Below, piece by piece: positions 3,501-55,777 of a stretch of DNA of 64,000 nucleotides. The position numbers and the translations under genes were made by a program. Position 1 is the first letter of the stretch. Every line of letters starts with the position of its first letter. The stretch comes from Escherichia phage vB_EcoM_Lutter: the sequence record NC_054924.1, one strand, 5' to 3'. The notes beneath the pieces were generated by a model, which was not told the origin of the DNA, ran no database searches, and worked only from the letters and a program-made list of their open reading frames with translations.

Positions 3501-4516
3501 TGTGTTGCCTCTACATATAACTGATTTGCATATTGAATAAGTGCTTCACGGTCAGAATCAGTGATGTCTGGAATTGCATTAATGTATTCTTCCATCAACG
3601 TCTGAAGAGATTGAACTTCAACTTCTTCACTGTCATCTGACTCGACAGAGTTATCAATCTTTGACACAACTCGTAATGAATGCACAACTTTTTCTAGTTC
3701 AGATTCGAACTTCGTCAGATTTTTGTCTACTTCAGTTACTATAACACGTACTGATAGATTTGTAAAATCTTTATAGTCAATTTTTCCTTTAAATGGATAA
3801 TGAATTCTACGATGCCAGGTAGTATTGTTTGGAATAAATTCCATTCGTTCTGTTTCTGTATCAAACATCCAGAACCCACGAGGGTCATTCTCGTCACCTG
3901 CAGTTAGTGTCCATGGTGTCCCAATATATCTGACGTTTGCAGCCTCAGAGATAGTATGGAAGTGACCAGACCACACCTCTTTATAAGTCTTAAGGAAATC
4001 AGGTTCAAGACCGTGAGATTTCATTCCTTTATAAAAATAAAATCCATTCAGTTCCCAGTGACCAACACAAAAAGAAGCAGATGAAGTTTTGATGTGCTCA
4101 AGAATTTCACCAGTATTTTCTTCGCACATCCAAGGAATTAAATCAATTAAACATCCGTCAAAATCGACTGTAGTAGGCTTATCATATACTTTAACATTAG
4201 GATATTTAGCCAAAAGCTCAGTAGAAGCATTTGGATGCATTACATTTTTGTAGTGGAGATCGTGATTTCCTACAATAGTATGTAATGTGATTCCAGCGTC
4301 ATCAAGCATTTGAACTATTTCACGGGCAAACTCCATAGTTTTATGTGTGATTGCTTTTCGCACATCAAAAATATCACCATATTGAATCCATACAGTAATT
4401 CCATTTTTCTTAGAATATTCTATCGCTTGCTTAATTCCATCAATTTGAATACCGCGAATCCACTCATCATCAGCTTTAACGCCTAAATGCCAATCACCCA
4501 AGTTTAGTATTTTCAT
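3497..4516 (-). CDS. 47: recombination endonuclease subunit gp47 (Mre11/SbcD-like phosphoesterase)
   Basis: 339 aa; calcineurin-like motifs LGDWHLG, GDIFD, GNHD, GHWE, SGHFH; T4 gp47 length. Confidence 0.92.
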   Translation of the reverse strand: MKILNLGDWHLGVKADDEWIRGIQIDGIKQAIEYSKKNGITVWIQYGDIFDVRKAITHKTMEFAREIVQMLDDAGITLHTIVGNHDLHYKNVMHPNASTELLAKYPNVKVYDKPTTVDFDGCLIDLIPWMCEENTGEILEHIKTSSASFCVGHWELNGFYFYKGMKSHGLEPDFLKTYKEVWSGHFHTISEAANVRYIGTPWTLTAGDENDPRGFWMFDTETERMEFIPNNTTWHRRIHYPFKGKIDYKDFTNLSVRVIVTEVDKNLTKFESELEKVVHSLRVVSKIDNSVESDDSEEVEVQSLQTLMEEYINAIPDITDSDREALIQYANQLYVEATQ

Positions 4517-33053: not shown

Positions 33054-33082
33054 ATTATACCATATTAATACTTAAGCGTAAA
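33054..33082 (-). promoter_or_regulatory. sigma-70-type promoter upstream of internal protein gene
   Basis: TTTACG-17-TGG-TATAAT. Confidence 0.5.
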
Positions 33083-33086
33083 CCGT

Positions 33087-33348
33087 TTAAGCTTCACCGC
33101 CAGAAATAATTCCGAAGTTGTTAAAATCGTATCCAATATCGTCAACATCTACTTTAGGACTTGTAGCAACATAAGCAATTTCACTGCGTTTTGCATAGGT
33201 GTTGATTTCTTTACCATCACCACCTAAGAAAAAAATACCCATTACGTTTTAATGAGCCAAAATCTTCGGCATCACCAACGAAAGCTTTAACTTTAAATTT
33301 GGGGCCTTTGGCATCTGCTTCAGCGATAAATTCTTGATACATTTTCAT
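33087..33348 (-). pseudogene. frameshifted internal-protein gene
   Basis: MKMYQEFIAEADAKGPKF... halts after an A7/T7 run at 33229-33235; one fewer base gives an ~86-aa ORF to the TAA at 33087. Confidence 0.5.
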
Positions 33349-33827: not shown

Positions 33828-35068
<1,241 letters not shown>

Positions 35069-38183: not shown

Positions 38184-38459
38184 TTATTTCATATTATTGA
38201 AATATTCTTCTGCGATTTCGTCGTTATCATGGTAAACTTTAGAAGACAGTTTAACATAACCTTCTGCCGTGAACATATTAATCACAACCTTTACAGTATA
38301 CCACTGACCATCTTCATTACCCATTACTGCGTAAGTTTCAAACATCGGATGATCAGGACCGATAACTTTAATATCATTCACTGTACGACCAAAATCTTCT
38401 GAAACACATTTCATAAAGAAGTTGAACAGTTCGCCGTAATTATCCATTTTATTCTCCAA
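38184..38459 (-). CDS. hypothetical protein (91 aa)
   Basis: ORF downstream of early promoter 38491-38519. Confidence 0.5.
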   Translation of the reverse strand: MENKMDNYGELFNFFMKCVSEDFGRTVNDIKVIGPDHPMFETYAVMGNEDGQWYTVKVVINMFTAEGYVKLSSKVYHDNDEIAEEYFNNMK

Positions 38460-38490: not shown

Positions 38491-38519
38491 ATAGTACCAT
38501 GGAAGAACAGGGATGTAAA
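38491..38519 (-). promoter_or_regulatory. early promoter
   Basis: TTTACA-17-TGG-TACTAT. Confidence 0.6.
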
Positions 38520-38575: not shown

Positions 38576-38658
38576 CAATTAAAGGATAGGATAATATATT
38601 ATAACGGGTAGAAACTAAATGATGTCTGGAGAGGCCCAGAAAGGCCTAGATGCCAAAA

Positions 38659-38682
38659 AGCCCCAATCTTTCGGTCGGGGCT
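38659..38682 (-). terminator. intrinsic terminator after internal-protein-like gene
   Basis: GCCCCGACC-GAAA-GAUUGGGGC then UUUUU, 8 nt after the stop. Confidence 0.6.
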
Positions 38683-38689
38683 AAGAATG

Positions 38690-39163
38690 TTATTTGATTT
38701 GTTTAGCAGACCAAATGCGGTCTTTGATAATTTTTTGGATGTCTTCAACATACTCAAGAGAGTGAACATGTGGATTATCTTTGAAACTATGAGCTCGCGC
38801 AAGTTTCTGGCCTTCAGTTTTGATTACTAAAAGCTCTTTAAGGATAGCTTCATATTTGGAGATAATTCCTTTAACAATATTTTTCTCTTGTGCGACTTTA
38901 GGATCTGCTTTAGGAGCAGGTTTACCCGAAGCCTTTGCAAAAGCAGCGCCAGTAGCAACTAAACTTTTCCAGGCCATACTAACTGCATTTCCCGTAAATC
39001 CTTCCGCTTTCATGTCGCGTGCGAACTGGAATCGCGATTCATCAGAAGCATCTTTATAGGAATATTTACCCGCTGCAATGGCTGCTTTTGCGACAGCTTG
39101 AATTTCGGTGCTAGATGCTTCATTTAACACCGCTTCATTTAAAAATTGAGTATATGATTTCAT
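38690..39163 (-). CDS. internal-protein-like protein with capsid targeting sequence
   Basis: 157 aa; MKSYTQFLNEA; own late promoter, flanked by terminator hairpins. Confidence 0.6.
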   Translation of the reverse strand: MKSYTQFLNEAVLNEASSTEIQAVAKAAIAAGKYSYKDASDESRFQFARDMKAEGFTGNAVSMAWKSLVATGAAFAKASGKPAPKADPKVAQEKNIVKGIISKYEAILKELLVIKTEGQKLARAHSFKDNPHVHSLEYVEDIQKIIKDRIWSAKQIK

Positions 39164-39199
39164 CTTATTTCCTGTTTTAATTTGTAGATTTAATATACT

Positions 39200-39207
39200 T
39201 ATTTATA
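39200..39207 (-). promoter_or_regulatory. late promoter for internal-protein-like gene
   Basis: TATAAATA on minus strand 36 nt upstream of ATG at 39163, just after terminator hairpin. Confidence 0.55.
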
Positions 39208-39213
39208 CTAAAA

Positions 39214-39237
39214 AGCCCCAACCTTTCGGCTGGGGCT
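39214..39237 (-). terminator. intrinsic terminator at end of tRNA/small-RNA region
   Basis: GCCCCAGCC-GAAA-GGUUGGGGC then UUUUU. Confidence 0.6.
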
Positions 39238-39283
39238 AAGCCTTGCGGCAACCTTGTCGGGGTTCCACCTGCTAAGGCAAGTG

Positions 39284-39548
39284 TTTGTACGAAACGCCGG
39301 GATTCGAACCCGGTTATTAAGCAGTTGACGCTACTCAATATTTTTAAAAGGCCATATCTCGACCATATCCGAACGTTCCGTCAAAAACGCTACTCGGCTT
39401 ACGGCAAAGATATTTCCTCGAATCGATAATTCTGTGCGCCGTTTCTGCTGTGATGTAAGGGGATATTAACAAATCGTAAAGATTTATTAAGACCAGTCCT
39501 TACTCAGGGAACATCAGTCCGACGTCTTGCCGGTAGCGACCCGGCTTC
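39284..39548 (-). ncRNA. candidate structured small RNA(s), tRNA-like 3' module (possible species 1/2 RNA equivalents)
   Basis: Noncoding; canonical T-arm CCGGG-UUCGAAU-CCCGG at 39296-39314 with 7-bp acceptor-like pairing, but no canonical anticodon arm; further stems upstream. Confidence 0.35.
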
Positions 39549-39893
39549 TTATTTTGGCATATCATCAATTTGCTCTCGACGCCGACGCCATAGATTAATC
39601 GCTTCATTGGCACATTCTGCGTTTGGTATATGACGGCAGCAATATAATGATTCGCGTTTCTGGAACCGATGTTGCAACGGAATTTCGTTTAAAAGGTCTT
39701 TACGGTCAAAGTATTCAAAACTAGTTAACCCGGAACGGTTTTTAAGAAACTTCCAATATCCGAATTCATTTTGAAAATAGACATAATCAGCATGCTGATA
39801 CAGCGAATTAATTAACCTATCGGAAATAACAGTGTCATTGTGATTAAAATAGAATGTTAAATCATGAACTACTAAATAAACATTACCTTTCAT
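39549..39893 (-). CDS. hypothetical protein (114 aa) within tRNA region
   Basis: ORF. Confidence 0.4.
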   Translation of the reverse strand: MKGNVYLVVHDLTFYFNHNDTVISDRLINSLYQHADYVYFQNEFGYWKFLKNRSGLTSFEYFDRKDLLNEIPLQHRFQKRESLYCCRHIPNAECANEAINLWRRRREQIDDMPK

Positions 39894-40251: not shown

Positions 40252-40737
40252 TTATTTTATGTAGTATTTATTTAAAAACTTTCTAGCTTGAGTATGGCTA
40301 ACATTTATAGCGTTTGCATAATTTTTAATAAAACCTCGTTCATCCATATTAAAATTTTCTAATATTTTTAATCGTCTAGTTATCTCATCTTGGCTTAAGG
40401 TACTTGCATTATTTTTAGAAATTTTTTCTAAAGACTGCACTGAGTGTTTTCGACCATTAAAATTAAAATTTTTAGATTTTGGAGGAAATCTATCATTTAG
40501 TCTCGCATCTTTTGTATTTTGATTATTAGTTGCGCAATATATGTTATTTAATGAGTATGGTCCTTTATCACCAAAACGACACATACAGTATTCATGACCC
40601 TTTCTTCCACGCTTATCATAATTTCCCGTTGATTTCCACCAATTCAACCACTCATCAAAAGTTAAATTCCATTCAATGTTTCTACGTATAGCAGAATTCC
40701 GCTGAGAAATATATTTTGCATAATCTTCTTTCATCAC
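40252..40737 (-). CDS. HNH homing endonuclease inserted within the tRNA cluster
   Basis: 161 aa; GHEYCMCRFGDKGPYSLNNIYCATNNQN HNH-type motif. Confidence 0.55.
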   Translation of the reverse strand: MMKEDYAKYISQRNSAIRRNIEWNLTFDEWLNWWKSTGNYDKRGRKGHEYCMCRFGDKGPYSLNNIYCATNNQNTKDARLNDRFPPKSKNFNFNGRKHSVQSLEKISKNNASTLSQDEITRRLKILENFNMDERGFIKNYANAINVSHTQARKFLNKYYIK

Positions 40738-41129: not shown

Positions 41130-41762
41130 TTATTTATTACGTGAAAAAGACTGTTCTATCAATTCTGGACACTTTCGTTCTATCCATTTTCTAGCTTTTT
41201 GTGGGCTTATACCTATTATTTTAGCAGCTTTACTAACCCATCCAAATTTAGAATAATCGATTTTAACTAATTCTTCGTAAATTTCATCAGTTAAAATCTT
41301 TTCATTAATATTTACCAGTAAATGATATAATTTATTATCATTAGCAATTTTAATGAATCTTTTATAGTTTCCGCCTTTACTTAAACCTAATGAAGTAATT
41401 GCAGATGATATAGTAGCCGAATTTAATAGTGCGTTTAAAATTTCTTCATCACTAACATTATAACGCTTTTTATTATTTTTAATATTTTTACCAGCAAAAG
41501 TATCAGTTTGCGAATGGCAGTTTGGACATAATAATCTTAAATTTGATTTAAGATGATTTTTGTTATTTCCATCAATATGGTCTAATTGCAGAACAATATG
41601 CTTATTTTGCCATTTTGAAATTTTACAAATTGCACACTCATATGGAAAAATATTTTCTTTTATTATTTTGTCTTTCAGCTTTCCTGTACTAAAATTTGGA
41701 TGTTTTCCTTCAAAAATTTCAGCTAATTTAGTATCCATAATATGATTCCCAATTATTAACAA
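41130..41762 (-). CDS. HNH homing endonuclease at head of tRNA cluster
   Basis: 210 aa; CAIC...LQLDHIDGNNKNH...LLCPNCH HNH/zinc motif. Confidence 0.65.
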   Translation of the reverse strand: MLIIGNHIMDTKLAEIFEGKHPNFSTGKLKDKIIKENIFPYECAICKISKWQNKHIVLQLDHIDGNNKNHLKSNLRLLCPNCHSQTDTFAGKNIKNNKKRYNVSDEEILNALLNSATISSAITSLGLSKGGNYKRFIKIANDNKLYHLLVNINEKILTDEIYEELVKIDYSKFGWVSKAAKIIGISPQKARKWIERKCPELIEQSFSRNK

Positions 41763-41848: not shown

Positions 41849-42142
41849 TTACCATTTATGATAATACATATTTACGATGCATTCAAGACCCAAAGGATTC
41901 TTGAAAATATCATATTCAAGAGGACCTTTTTCTGTTTCAATAAAGAAATCAAAATTTACTGTATTAAATTTACGGTCTTCCTTTACTAATTTAACTTGTG
42001 AAGATGAACGGTCAATGTAAACCTTTTCAACTTCAAAATATGTTAAAATGCCATAATCATCAATCAAGGCTTTAGCCGCGTCTTGATCATATTTATATCC
42101 ATTTTCAATGGACGATACTTTCGCATAAAGAATCATTATCAA
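41849..42142 (-). CDS. hypothetical protein (97 aa)
   Basis: ORF. Confidence 0.5.
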   Translation of the reverse strand: MIMILYAKVSSIENGYKYDQDAAKALIDDYGILTYFEVEKVYIDRSSSQVKLVKEDRKFNTVNFDFFIETEKGPLEYDIFKNPLGLECIVNMYYHKW

Positions 42143-42531
42143 CCTTCATCAACAATAGTATGCGTATTGGCATTTACAATTTGCCACCAATCAAAGCGAT
42201 TAGAACCATAATCTGGTTTGTTTTCATTTTCTTTGATAATGTCACGGAGTTCATCTTCAGTGGCGGCTTTCGCGATTAAATCAGCATATCCACCACGAGG
42301 ATAATAATTATCACCTGCAAAAAGTAAAAAGTTTGGTTTAATGTTATTGAACTCTTCAAGAGTAATAACTGTTCCTGATGGTAGTTGAACAATCTCTACA
42401 TATTTATATCCCAATTTTTGAGCAGCATCTACTGCTTCAAGCAAAGTATCATGAGCCCATCCAATTTGACAACCTGGCTTTTCAGATGGATTAGCCTGAT
42501 AATCCGCATACACTTTATACATTCTATTCAC
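42139..42531 (-). CDS. hypothetical protein (130 aa)
   Basis: ORF. Confidence 0.5.
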   Translation of the reverse strand: MNRMYKVYADYQANPSEKPGCQIGWAHDTLLEAVDAAQKLGYKYVEIVQLPSGTVITLEEFNNIKPNFLLFAGDNYYPRGGYADLIAKAATEDELRDIIKENENKPDYGSNRFDWWQIVNANTHTIVDEG

Positions 42532-42779: not shown

Positions 42780-43037
42780 TTATTTTAAATCTTCTAATCG
42801 TTTCTTCATCTTAGAACCATTTTTAGCAATTTCTCCTGCATCGGAGCATAACGCTAAAAGTGCTTTAACTTTAGTTTGGTCTCCTTTAAAAGACGAAGGA
42901 TCGACCGCAGCAGCAAGTTCTTTAATACGAGAGAAAAGACGCTCAGCTTCAGCTAAAGCCATTCCAAGCTTTACTTCCATACCGTGAGAAGATTCAGTAA
43001 TAGTAGTTTTTGTAGCAAACTCTTTGAAAGTTTTCAT
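42780..43037 (-). CDS. internal protein (ipI position) with capsid targeting sequence
   Basis: 85 aa; MKTFKEFATK; shares EIAKNGSxMKxRLE with 33828-34124. Confidence 0.6.
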   Translation of the reverse strand: MKTFKEFATKTTITESSHGMEVKLGMALAEAERLFSRIKELAAAVDPSSFKGDQTKVKALLALCSDAGEIAKNGSKMKKRLEDLK

Positions 43038-54741: not shown

Positions 54742-55738
54742 TTCAAGTGTTATCTATCGTGCGATAGTTACTTCAAAATTTAGAACAGAAAAAATGTTGA
54801 ATTTTTATAATTCAATTGGAAGTGGTCCGGATAAAAACACTATCTTTATCACATTTGGAAGATCAGAACCGTGGTCATCAAATGAAAATGAGGTGGGCTT
54901 TGCCCCACCTTATCCAACTGATTCTGTATTAGGCGTAACTGACATGTGGACGCATATGATGGGAACCGTAAAGGTTCTTCCATCTATGCTTGATGCAGTT
55001 ATTCCTCGCAGAGATTGGGGAGATACTAGATATCCGGATCCATACACATTTAGAATTAACGATATTGTAGTGTGTAACTCAGCTCCTTACAACGCTACTG
55101 AATCAGGCGCAGGCTGGTTAGTATATCGTTGTTTAGATGTTCCTGATACCGGAATGTGTTCAATCGCATCTTTAACTGATAAGGATGAATGCCTTAAGTT
55201 AGGTGGAAAATGGACTCCTTCTGCTAGGTCAATGACTCCTCCTGAAGGTCGAGGAGATGCTGAAGGAACAATTGAACCTGGGGACGGGTATGTGTGGGAA
55301 TATCTATTTGAGATTCCGCCTGATGTATCTATAAATAGATGCACGAATGAATATATCGTGGTTCCTTGGCCTGAGGAATTAAAAGAAGACCCGACTAGAT
55401 GGGGGTATGAAGATAATCTCACTTGGCAGCAAGATGATTTTGGATTAATTTACCGTGTTAAGGCAAATACTATCCGTTTTAAAGCATATTTAGATTCAGT
55501 TTATTTTCCTGAAGCTGCATTGCCAGGAAATAAAGGATTTAGACAAATATCAATAATCACGAATCCTCTTGAAGCTAAAGCTCATCCAAATGACCCAAAC
55601 GTTAAAGCTGAAAAGGATTATTATGATCCGGAAGATTTAATGAGGCATTCGGGCGAAATGATTTATATGGAAAATAGGCCACCTATTATTATGGCAATGG
55701 ATCAGACAGAAGAAATCAATATTCTGTTTACATTTTAA
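54734..55738 (+). CDS. 8: baseplate wedge protein gp8
   Basis: 334 aa. Confidence 0.9.
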   Translation: MNDSSVIYRAIVTSKFRTEKMLNFYNSIGSGPDKNTIFITFGRSEPWSSNENEVGFAPPYPTDSVLGVTDMWTHMMGTVKVLPSMLDAVIPRRDWGDTRYPDPYTFRINDIVVCNSAPYNATESGAGWLVYRCLDVPDTGMCSIASLTDKDECLKLGGKWTPSARSMTPPEGRGDAEGTIEPGDGYVWEYLFEIPPDVSINRCTNEYIVVPWPEELKEDPTRWGYEDNLTWQQDDFGLIYRVKANTIRFKAYLDSVYFPEAALPGNKGFRQISIITNPLEAKAHPNDPNVKAEKDYYDPEDLMRHSGEMIYMENRPPIIMAMDQTEEINILFTF

Positions 55739-55743
55739 CTTAA

Positions 55744-55770
55744 GGGAGCCCATGGGCTCCCTTTTTCTTT
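55744..55770 (+). terminator. intrinsic terminator after gene 8
   Basis: GGGAGCC-CAUG-GGCUCCC then UUUUUCUUU on plus strand. Confidence 0.65.
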
Positions 55771-55777
55771 ATAAATA
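55770..55777 (+). promoter_or_regulatory. late promoter for gene 9
   Basis: TATAAATA on plus strand 24 nt upstream of gp9 ATG. Confidence 0.6.

What the first reader, a model, noticed from the sequence alone, without database searches (positions are those of the whole stretch)
38659..39237. Internal-protein-like gene forms an insulated late cassette: terminator, late promoter, gene, terminator
The 157-aa protein (N-terminus MKSYTQFLNEA, capsid-targeting-like) is preceded by a GAAA-loop hairpin with U5 (39214-39237) and a TATAAATA (39200-39207), and followed 8 nt after its stop by a second hairpin with U5 (38659-38682). The two hairpins are near-identical in stem and loop, so the gene looks like a self-contained module, consistent with internal-protein loci being hypervariable cargo sites.
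Basis: partly seen in the sequence, partly recalled or inferred. Interest (0 to 1): 0.5.

Follow-up and report, generated by a model that had tools for sequence, protein, structure and literature searches.

The report
Late-expressed internal-protein gene cassette in T4-like phage
A T4-like phage carries an optional, self-contained gene module (late promoter, gene for a probable head-packaged protein, and a copy of the neighbouring terminator) at a site that is empty in T4, which is a new example of a known kind of phage gene shuffling.

Summary
The window is a Tequatrovirus genome. ORF 38690-39163 (-) encodes 157 aa with a T4 internal-protein-type leader (MKSYTQFLNE|AVLNE|A). A GC-rich GAAA-loop hairpin plus T5 and a TATAAATA lie upstream. 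A second copy of the same 30-nt hairpin/T-run lies downstream; these are the only two copies in 64 kb.

The upstream hairpin is not private to the gene. It is the terminator after rnaC, at the end of the tRNA/rnaD/rnaC cluster. T4, T6, RB6 and PST have one hairpin at this site and no gene.

Related phages show four states: empty, the 157-aa gene, a 187-aa gene, or both. Every junction falls right after GGGGCTTTTT. Alleles are swapped independently of the flanks.

The site lies between rnaC and e.8. It is not one of the two classical Ip loci, and its flanks differ from the early-promoter/stem-loop repeats found there.

The 157-, 187- and 205-aa proteins belong to one uncharacterised family (phrog_2280). 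The gene is under purifying selection. A 97%-identical homolog (fD1 g140) was detected in purified virions.

Verdict: a real but mostly expected feature, a new member of a known kind. What the mature protein does is only inferred, most likely anti-defence.

The parts
39288..39426 (-). rnaC (species 1 RNA) homolog. It is the last annotated gene upstream of hairpin A, after the tRNAs and rnaD.
   Evidence: 98.6% identical over 139 nt to the rnaC annotated in T4. Annotated as rnaC in Kha5h and T4. No Rfam family matches it.
39210..39239 (-). Hairpin A with its T5 run (stem-loop 39214-39237). It looks like an intrinsic terminator following rnaC. It is the left copy of the 30-nt direct repeat.
   Evidence: MFE -20.6 kcal/mol, z = -3.9. 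Found by the terminator scan. The same single hairpin is present in T4, where the site is empty. Others have annotated it as a terminator in Kha5h, G50 and fPS-2.
39200..39207 (-). T4-type late promoter motif TATAAATA, 2 nt after the T-run and 36 nt before the ATG.
   Evidence: Of the 12 locus-survey loci that hold at least one gene (T4 is empty), 10 have exact TATAAATA and 2 have AATAAATA at the homologous position. Jiaodavirus has it too. It is absent from the empty T4 site.
39168..39173 (-). Ribosome-binding site AGGAAA, 4 nt before the ATG.
   Evidence: Read directly from the sequence.
38690..39163 (-). Gene for a 157-aa internal-protein-like protein of phrog_2280. Codons 1-15 (39119-39163) form the capsid-targeting-type leader, with two L-x-E motifs.
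   Evidence: Leader and [LIV]xE sites. dN/dS 0.05-0.15. 510 phage records carry a homolog. fD1 g140, 97% identical, was detected in virions.
38655..38684 (-). Hairpin B with its T5 run (stem-loop 38659-38682). It is the right copy of the 30-nt repeat and the terminator-like element of the cassette.
   Evidence: MFE -13.6 kcal/mol, z = -2.3. It is the second of only two matches in the window. Annotated as a terminator in G50 and fPS-2.
38491..38519 (-). Early-type promoter (TTTACA, 17-nt spacer, TACTAT, with TG before the second hexamer) for the next unit (e.8). It marks the end of the transcription-free gap that hosts the cassette.
   Evidence: Promoter scan. Conserved in T4. Annotated as a predicted early promoter in fPS-2.
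38184..38447 (-). e.8 homolog, the right-hand conserved flank.
   Evidence: phrog_2678. 96-98% nucleotide identity to T4 and other Tequatroviruses. Annotated as e.8 in T4 and PST.

Best explanation
The 157-aa ORF is a dispensable, late-expressed protein that is targeted to the head, of the T4 internal-protein (Ip) kind. It sits as a plug-in cassette in the transcription-free gap between the hairpin that follows rnaC and the early promoter of e.8.

Proposed expression. Hairpin A is expected to stop transcription coming from the tRNA/rnaC side. TATAAATA, placed directly behind it, would drive late (gp55-type) transcription of the gene. That timing matches prohead-core assembly. The leader MKSYTQFLNE|AVLNE|A would direct the protein into the prohead core. 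The prohead protease would then cut it off after L-x-E, leaving a basic protein of about 142-147 aa that is ejected with the DNA. Hairpin B, a duplicate of hairpin A, would end the transcript before e.8.

Proposed mobility. The cassette consists of late promoter + gene + terminator copy, so it is bracketed by 30-nt direct repeats. Homologous recombination at these repeats and at the conserved 3' end of the ORF adds, deletes or swaps cassettes without disturbing the neighbours.

What is shown and what is inferred. Shown: the anatomy, the polymorphism with junctions at the repeat, purifying selection, and virion association of a near-identical homolog. Inferred: late-only transcription, termination, leader cleavage, injection, and the role of the mature protein. 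That role is most likely counter-defence, by analogy with Ip1-3, which inhibit GmrSD-type restriction enzymes.
For: - Anatomy.
- Empty site in T4 with one hairpin and no TATAAATA.
- Four configurations, with every junction right after GGGGCTTTTT.
- Systematic sample of 42 records that have both anchors: 23 single, 10 double, 2 with a roughly 700-bp insert, 7 empty.
- Allele mosaicism. L004 has flanks at 97-98% identity but the ORF at 82%. L007 has rnaC at 99% but the ORF at 76%. The left breakpoint is at hairpin A.
- The same architecture (hairpin, T5, AG, TATAAATA, homolog, hairpin, early promoter) lies downstream of the tRNA cluster in a Klebsiella Jiaodavirus, with a different stem sequence. 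Mosigvirus-like loci repeat the hairpin + TATAAATA unit before each of two genes.
- The leader matches the one carried by the window's ipIII-type and ipII-locus proteins. The [LIV]xE rule reproduces the 76-aa mature IPI* of T4. pI is 9.5-9.6.
- dN/dS is 0.05-0.15.
- fD1 g140 is flagged PPAP and is 97% identical.
- Ip1, Ip2 and Ip3 each inhibit a distinct GmrSD variant (PMC12373910).
Against: - There is no transcript, cleavage or injection data for this protein.
- The fD1 proteome flags 113-137 of 277 gene products as particle-associated, including DenV, NudE and lysozyme. That detection is therefore only moderately specific.
- The protein resembles Ip1-3, and the PHROG families named as internal proteins, only in the leader.
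- The AF2 model (pLDDT 74.6) has no informative fold match.
- TATAAATA is not enriched in the window as a whole.
- Hairpin B carries a stem mismatch in this phage.
- The 187-aa cassette has no exact TATAAATA and ends in a different hairpin.
- The right breakpoint of allele swaps lies inside the ORF, not at hairpin B.
Confidence: 0.7

Rival explanations
1. The gene is a real late gene, but its product is not a packaged and injected internal protein. It could be a cytoplasmic late protein or an assembly factor. On this reading the leader resemblance is a remnant of recombination with ip genes, and the virion detection is carry-over.
For: The fD1 particle proteome also lists clearly non-structural proteins such as DenV, NudE and Tk. 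PHROGs files the family under unknown function, not as an internal protein. Similarity to known Ips is limited to 11 residues.
Against: The leader, including its L-x-E motif, is kept in all alleles and in distant homologs from Yersinia and Klebsiella phages, although the following domain diverges. In this window the motif occurs only in ORFs at Ip loci and in this ORF. The protein is basic, dispensable and preceded by a late-promoter motif, like Ips. g140 passed the strict threshold, whereas its neighbours g138 and g139 were not detected.
Confidence: 0.12
2. The duplicated hairpin serves only as a terminator and has no part in mobility. On this reading, gain and loss of the cassette come from general recombination in the long conserved flanks during mixed infections. 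Co-conversion driven by the homing endonucleases in the adjacent tRNA cluster may add to this.
For: Flanks (rnaC, e.8) are 96-100% identical among Tequatroviruses, which gives ample homology. Homing-endonuclease-like ORFs lie about 1-2 kb away at 40252-40737 and 41130-41762, where T4 has segB. The right breakpoint of allele swaps is inside the ORF. A terminator followed by TATAAATA also occurs at a core late region near 55770.
Against: Flank recombination moves existing states between phages, but it does not explain how they arose. All four states differ by exact units bounded by the repeat. The B-only state (Shfl2) is precisely the double state minus one repeat-to-repeat unit. The left breakpoint of allele swaps coincides with hairpin A. 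The cassette itself contains no endonuclease gene.
Confidence: 0.2
3. The pattern is a chance ORF with chance hairpins.
For: TATAAATA alone is at chance frequency.
Against: Two copies of the 30-mer against 0 in 100 shuffles. dN/dS is 0.05-0.15. 510 records carry homologs. Peptides were detected for the homolog.
Confidence: 0.01

Closest known systems
T4 internal proteins IPI, IPII and IPIII and the T-even Ip repertoire (Repoila et al. 1994, as cited in PMC2839356 and PMC12373910)
   Same: Small, basic and dispensable. N-terminal leader of about 10-15 residues of the MK(T/S)Y.EF(I/L).E type, ending in an L/I-x-E protease motif. Variable presence among close relatives. A homolog was found in virions.
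   Different: No sequence or fold similarity beyond the leader. It belongs to phrog_2280 (unknown function). It is encoded at rnaC/e.8, not at the ipI or ipII-ipIII loci. It has its own TATAAATA, which the T4 ip genes lack immediately upstream.
PeSL cassettes (promoter-early stem-loops) of RB49/phi1, and the PeSL-like repeats at the T-even Ip loci (Arbiol 2010, PMC2839356; Comeau 2014, PMC4122927)
   Same: A gene is bracketed by short repeated regulatory motifs that contain a stem-loop acting as a terminator. The cassettes are transcriptionally self-contained. Insertion, deletion and replacement polymorphism has its junctions in the repeats.
   Different: Here the repeat is a GC-rich intrinsic-terminator-like hairpin shared with the upstream rnaC unit. 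The promoter is the late TATAAATA, placed after the stem-loop. It is not an early or sigma-70-like promoter overlapping the stem-loop. In Tequatrovirus only the terminator is duplicated. In Mosigvirus-like loci the terminator + late promoter composite is duplicated.
Hairpin following rnaC (species 1 RNA) in phage T4, at the end of the tRNA/rnaD/rnaC cluster
   Same: Hairpin A is its ortholog, with 28 of 30 positions the same and the same position after rnaC.
   Different: In this phage the element is present twice. The second copy ends an inserted late gene.

Membership tests
T4-type internal (injected head) proteins | N-terminal capsid-targeting leader of the MK(T/S)Y.EF(I/L).E type | tested here: met
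   MKSYTQFLNEA. In the window the motif occurs only in ORFs at the ipII/ipIII locus and in this ORF. It is kept in all alleles and in distant homologs.
T4-type internal (injected head) proteins | Prohead-protease (gp21) site L/I-x-E at the end of the leader, and its cleavage | tested here: inconclusive
   The motif is present twice, as LNE at residues 8-10 and 13-15. The same rule reproduces the 76-aa mature IPI* of T4. Actual cleavage cannot be tested with these tools.
T4-type internal (injected head) proteins | Protein present in purified virions | tested here: met
   fD1 g140, 97% identical, is flagged PPAP under the strict threshold in Table S3 of PMC8309999. Caveat: that list covers 41-49% of the proteome.
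T4-type internal (injected head) proteins | Located inside the head and ejected with the DNA | not testable with these tools
   This needs head fractionation and an injection assay.
T4-type internal (injected head) proteins | Sequence or fold homology to a characterised Ip family | tested here: not met
   phrog_2280 has unknown function, whereas the window's other Ips hit phrog_3499 and phrog_5341, which are named internal head/virion protein. No Pfam family. No PDB or BFVD fold match. Ips are mutually non-homologous apart from the leader (PMC12373910), so this feature is weak as a criterion.
T4-type internal (injected head) proteins | Encoded in one of the two described Ip loci | tested here: not met
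   It lies between rnaC and e.8. T4 ipI lies between 57B and trna.4, and ipII/ipIII lie between denV and e. The literature speaks of two Ip loci.
PeSL / Ip-locus promoter-stem-loop shuffling cassettes | Gene flanked on both sides by a repeated short motif that contains a stem-loop | tested here: met
   A 30-nt repeat, 27/30 identical, with only two copies in the window.
PeSL / Ip-locus promoter-stem-loop shuffling cassettes | The repeated motif contains an early (sigma-70-like or T4 early) promoter associated with the stem-loop | tested here: not met
   The promoter motif here is the late TATAAATA, downstream of the stem-loop, and is present only at the left copy. The T4 ipI flanks show the early-promoter type.
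PeSL / Ip-locus promoter-stem-loop shuffling cassettes | Insertion, deletion or replacement among relatives with junctions in the repeats | tested here: met
   Empty, A, B and A+B states all join right after GGGGCTTTTT.
PeSL / Ip-locus promoter-stem-loop shuffling cassettes | Circular excision products (mini-circles) | not testable with these tools
   This needs inverse PCR on infected cells.
Intrinsic (rho-independent) terminator | GC-rich stem-loop directly followed by a U-run | tested here: met
   Both hairpins. Independent ARNold-type and other annotations exist in Kha5h, G50 and fPS-2. Termination efficiency was not tested.
T4 late promoter | TATAAATA about 6-7 nt upstream of the start site, with no -35 element | tested here: inconclusive
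   The motif is present and its position is conserved across three genera. It is not enriched in the window. Dependence on gp55/gp33/gp45 cannot be tested here.

The most novel reading that the evidence does not exclude
The rnaC/e.8 gap is a third injected-protein locus of T-even-type phages that has not been catalogued so far. It would be conserved from Tequatrovirus to Mosigvirus and Jiaodavirus. Its phrog_2280 proteins (157, 187 and 205 aa) would be a diversifying family of counter-defence effectors, for example against further GmrSD or other nuclease variants. The variable N-terminal domain would set specificity and the near-invariant C-terminal helical hairpin would be a common module. 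The cassettes would be shuffled by terminator/late-promoter repeats, a late-gene counterpart of PeSLs.
Probability: 0.3. Interest if true: 0.6.

Novelty: new member of a known kind. Interest (0 to 1): 0.4.

Why it matters
Ip1, Ip2 and Ip3 of T4 were recently shown each to disarm a different GmrSD-type restriction enzyme (PMC12373910). The authors predict that the other proteins of 'the two Ip loci' do likewise.

The results here point to a further locus. It holds an uncharacterised Ip-like family that 510 of 737 related phage records carry, but that T4, T6, RB6 and PST lack. That gives concrete candidates for host-range and counter-defence tests.

It also shows that cassette shuffling in T-even phages is not tied to early-promoter PeSL-type repeats. 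A duplicated terminator can play the same part.

For phage engineering, the rnaC/e.8 gap looks like a natural, transcriptionally insulated safe harbour for late-expressed cargo.

Tried and rejected
- Pfam gave nothing for the 157-aa protein.
- The profile search of PDB sequences gave only a spurious designer-PPR hit with no passing stretch.
- Foldseek against BFVD and PDB returned only the protein's own relatives or noise.
- Rfam has no family for the hairpins or for rnaC.
- PST 'ipIV' has the same length (157 aa), so I suspected the same gene at another Ip locus. Beyond the N-terminal leader, the translated sequence shows no evident resemblance to the 157-aa protein.
- Repoila et al. 1994 is not held. 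Its content is cited only through PMC2839356 and PMC12373910.
- The supplement of PMC4122927 is not held.
- The IMG/VR scan with e.8 gave only 10 loci. I therefore estimated configuration frequencies with a two-anchor query padded with random sequence, so that BLAST pieces up to about 3 kb apart were joined.
- BLASTP of the 157- against the 187-aa protein finds only the leader. Their relationship rests on the shared PHROG profile and on the 205-aa intermediate.
- The profile search of 1.8 billion representatives found only 12 clusters, so the family is narrow.

Full report
**Identity of the window.** The region matches 737 phage records, nearly all Tequatrovirus and relatives, at 90-99% identity. 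Genes here run on the - strand. Upstream of the finding lie eight tRNA genes. They are followed by homologs of T4 rnaD (39434-39552) and rnaC (39288-39426, 98.6% identical to T4). Downstream lies the e.8 homolog at 38184-38447.

**The observation.**
- Hairpin A folds at -20.6 kcal/mol (z = -3.9). Hairpin B folds at -13.6 kcal/mol (z = -2.3), because in this phage one stem position is mismatched.
- The repeat extends to 30 nt, TTAGCCCC...GGGGCTTTTT. Allowing 3 mismatches, the window holds exactly two copies, against none in 100 shuffles.
- TATAAATA by itself is at chance frequency, 13 sites against 10.8 expected. Its evidential value comes from conservation of position, described below.

**What the upstream hairpin is.** In T4 the interval between rnaC and e.8 holds the same hairpin once (AGCCCCGACCGAAAGGTTGGGGCTTTTT, -21.6 kcal/mol). 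It is followed directly by the sequence that follows hairpin B in the window. T4 has no TATAAATA and no ORF there. Others have annotated the element as a terminator in Kha5h, G50 and fPS-2. So hairpin A is the terminator-like element that follows rnaC at the end of the tRNA/rnaD/rnaC cluster. Relative to T4, the extra DNA is exactly [AG-TATAAATA, 5' UTR, 157-aa gene, 7 nt, second copy of the hairpin and T-run].

**Polymorphism of the locus.** I compared T4, Kha5h, G50, PST, Shfl2, fPS-2, phiD1 and ten IMG/VR loci. In Tequatrovirus four states exist:
- empty (T4, PST);
- cassette A, the 157-aa gene (window, Kha5h, fPS-2, phiD1);
- cassette B alone, 187 aa starting MKTYAEFLTEA (Shfl2);
- A+B (G50, L006, L007, L013).

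Every junction falls immediately after GGGGCTTTTT. The Shfl2 state equals the double state minus one repeat-to-repeat unit.

To estimate frequencies I used a two-anchor query, rnaC 3' part plus the e.8 region, padded with random sequence so that distant pieces were joined. I sampled it evenly down the ranking of 737 records. Of the 42 records with both anchors:
- 23 had spans fitting one cassette;
- 10 had spans fitting two cassettes;
- 2 had a roughly 700-bp insert (Shfl2 and G4498);
- 7 were empty, including T4, T6 and RB6.

By tblastn, 510 records carry the 157-aa family and 165 carry the 187-aa gene.

**More distant relatives.**
- Mosigvirus-like loci carry the unit [GGCCCTTCC-GAAA-GGTTGGGCC, T-run, G, TATAAATA] before a DUF7338 gene (184 aa, no leader). 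The same unit recurs before a 205-aa gene that does have a leader.
- A Klebsiella Jiaodavirus has the homolog at the same place, after its tRNA cluster. A different hairpin (GCCCCGTC-TTCG-GACGGGGC) is followed by the same TTTTTAGTATAAATA, then the gene, a hairpin and an early promoter.

The arrangement (terminator, late promoter, Ip-like gene, terminator, early promoter) is therefore conserved while the stem sequences change. That argues for function rather than shared accident.

**Exchange as a unit.** Cassette alleles do not follow the flanks.
- L004 has rnaC at 97% and e.8 at 98% identity to the window, but the ORF at 82%.
- L007 has rnaC at 99% and the ORF at 76%, a Mosigvirus-type allele.

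Identity profiles drop at hairpin A and recover about 60 nt before the stop codon. The protein alignment agrees. The leader and N-terminal domain fall into three allele classes, while residues from about 85 to 157 are almost invariant. Swaps therefore use hairpin A on the left, and the conserved 3' end of the ORF plus hairpin B on the right.

**The protein.**
- It is basic (pI 9.5) and has L-x-E motifs ending at residues 10 and 15. The same rule applied to T4 IPI gives the known 76-aa IPI* (the size of IPI* is from my own knowledge).
- In the window the leader motif occurs in only four ORFs. Three are at the ipII/ipIII locus and the fourth is this one.
- dN/dS against ten alleles is 0.05-0.15.
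- The family has no Pfam model.
- The 157-, 187- and 205-aa proteins all match phrog_2280 over their full length. The 157- and 205-aa proteins are 26% identical (E = 2e-9).
- Only 13 clusters at 90% identity and 12 at 50% identity exist in the large protein collections. All named members come from phages of enterobacteria, and those I examined are T4-like.
- The AF2 model (pLDDT 74.6) shows a disordered leader, a small helical domain, a Pro/Lys/Ala linker and a long helical hairpin. It has no informative structural neighbour.
- In Table S3 of PMC8309999, fD1 g140 (97% identical) is a phage-particle-associated protein under the strict threshold. Its neighbours g138 and g139 (e.8) are not. The same table also flags DenV and NudE, so specificity is limited.

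**Mechanism proposed.** The gap between the hairpin after rnaC and the e.8 early promoter (38491-38519) is not part of any transcription unit. A cassette that brings a late promoter and restores a terminator can sit there without polar effects. Late timing suits a protein that must enter the prohead core. The 30-nt direct repeats, together with the conserved ORF end, give T4-type recombination short homologies; less than 50 bp suffices according to PMC2839356. This would generate the observed gain, loss and replacement. These steps are inferred from anatomy and comparison.

**Relation to what is known.** Hyperplastic Ip loci and promoter/stem-loop cassettes are established. Repoila 1994 described them at 'the two' Ip loci, with T4 early promoters and AT-rich stem-loops. 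PeSLs were described in RB49/phi1 and later in other T4-like phages. I confirmed the early-promoter type around T4 ipI and around the window's ipI-locus gene. A 2025 study still refers to two Ip loci. It shows that Ip1-3 each inhibit a distinct GmrSD enzyme.

The present cassette is the same kind of thing, with three differences:
- it sits at a third position;
- it uses a late promoter;
- its flanking repeat is a duplicated GC-rich terminator.

A terminator followed by TATAAATA also occurs at a core late region of this window, so the regulatory design itself is ordinary for T4.

**Verdict.** It is a new member of a known kind: a further Ip-like family and locus. It is of moderate interest, mainly as a source of candidates for counter-defence functions.

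Noticed in passing
window 33060-33348 (-): An Ip-type ORF at the ipII position (MKMYQEFIAEADAKG...) stops after 43 aa. It continues in the +1 frame (..GGDGKEINTYAKRSEIAYV..) past a T7 run. This is either a frameshifted pseudogene or a homopolymer sequencing error.
   Followed up: partly
window 33828-34109 (-) and 42780-43037 (-): A 93-aa gene next to e and an 85-aa gene at the ipI position both match phrog_3499 (internal head protein) and are clearly homologous. Their leaders differ ([16 protein letters not shown] versus MKTFKEFATKTTITES). So one Ip family is present at both classical loci of the same phage.
   Followed up: partly
window 40252-40737 (-) and 41130-41762 (-): Two ORFs interrupt or abut the tRNA cluster. 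One is 161 aa with no Pfam hit. The other is 210 aa with a weak HNH match below the cut-off. T4 has the homing endonuclease segB in this region. They are probably mobile endonuclease genes.
   Followed up: partly
window about 55735-55777 (+): A second composite of the same design: GC-rich hairpin GGGAGCCCATGGGCTCCC, T-run, then TATAAATA, with an ATG 24 nt further on.
   Followed up: no
window 39549-39893 (-): A 114-aa ORF (phrog_3355, unknown function) lies between tRNA-Arg and rnaD. T4 has no gene there, so this is another small indel in the tRNA region.
   Followed up: no
P0013 (94 aa, a 2.9-kb assembly contig): A chimeric protein. Its N-terminal part resembles the window's trna.3-like protein (42139-42531). 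Its last 32 residues are the C-terminus of the 157-aa protein. It is either a natural recombinant joining two distant sites or an assembly artefact.
   Followed up: no
L008 about 3785-3940 (region positions 574-730): In this Mosigvirus-like locus only the first few codons and the 3' end of the DUF7338 gene remain between the two hairpins. It is a deletion derivative of the arrangement seen in L010.
   Followed up: no
OP870145.1 (vB_Eco_F26) 70380-71290: The 187-aa cassette gene matches in two pieces spanning 911 nt instead of 561. There is therefore an insertion of about 350 bp inside the gene.
   Followed up: no
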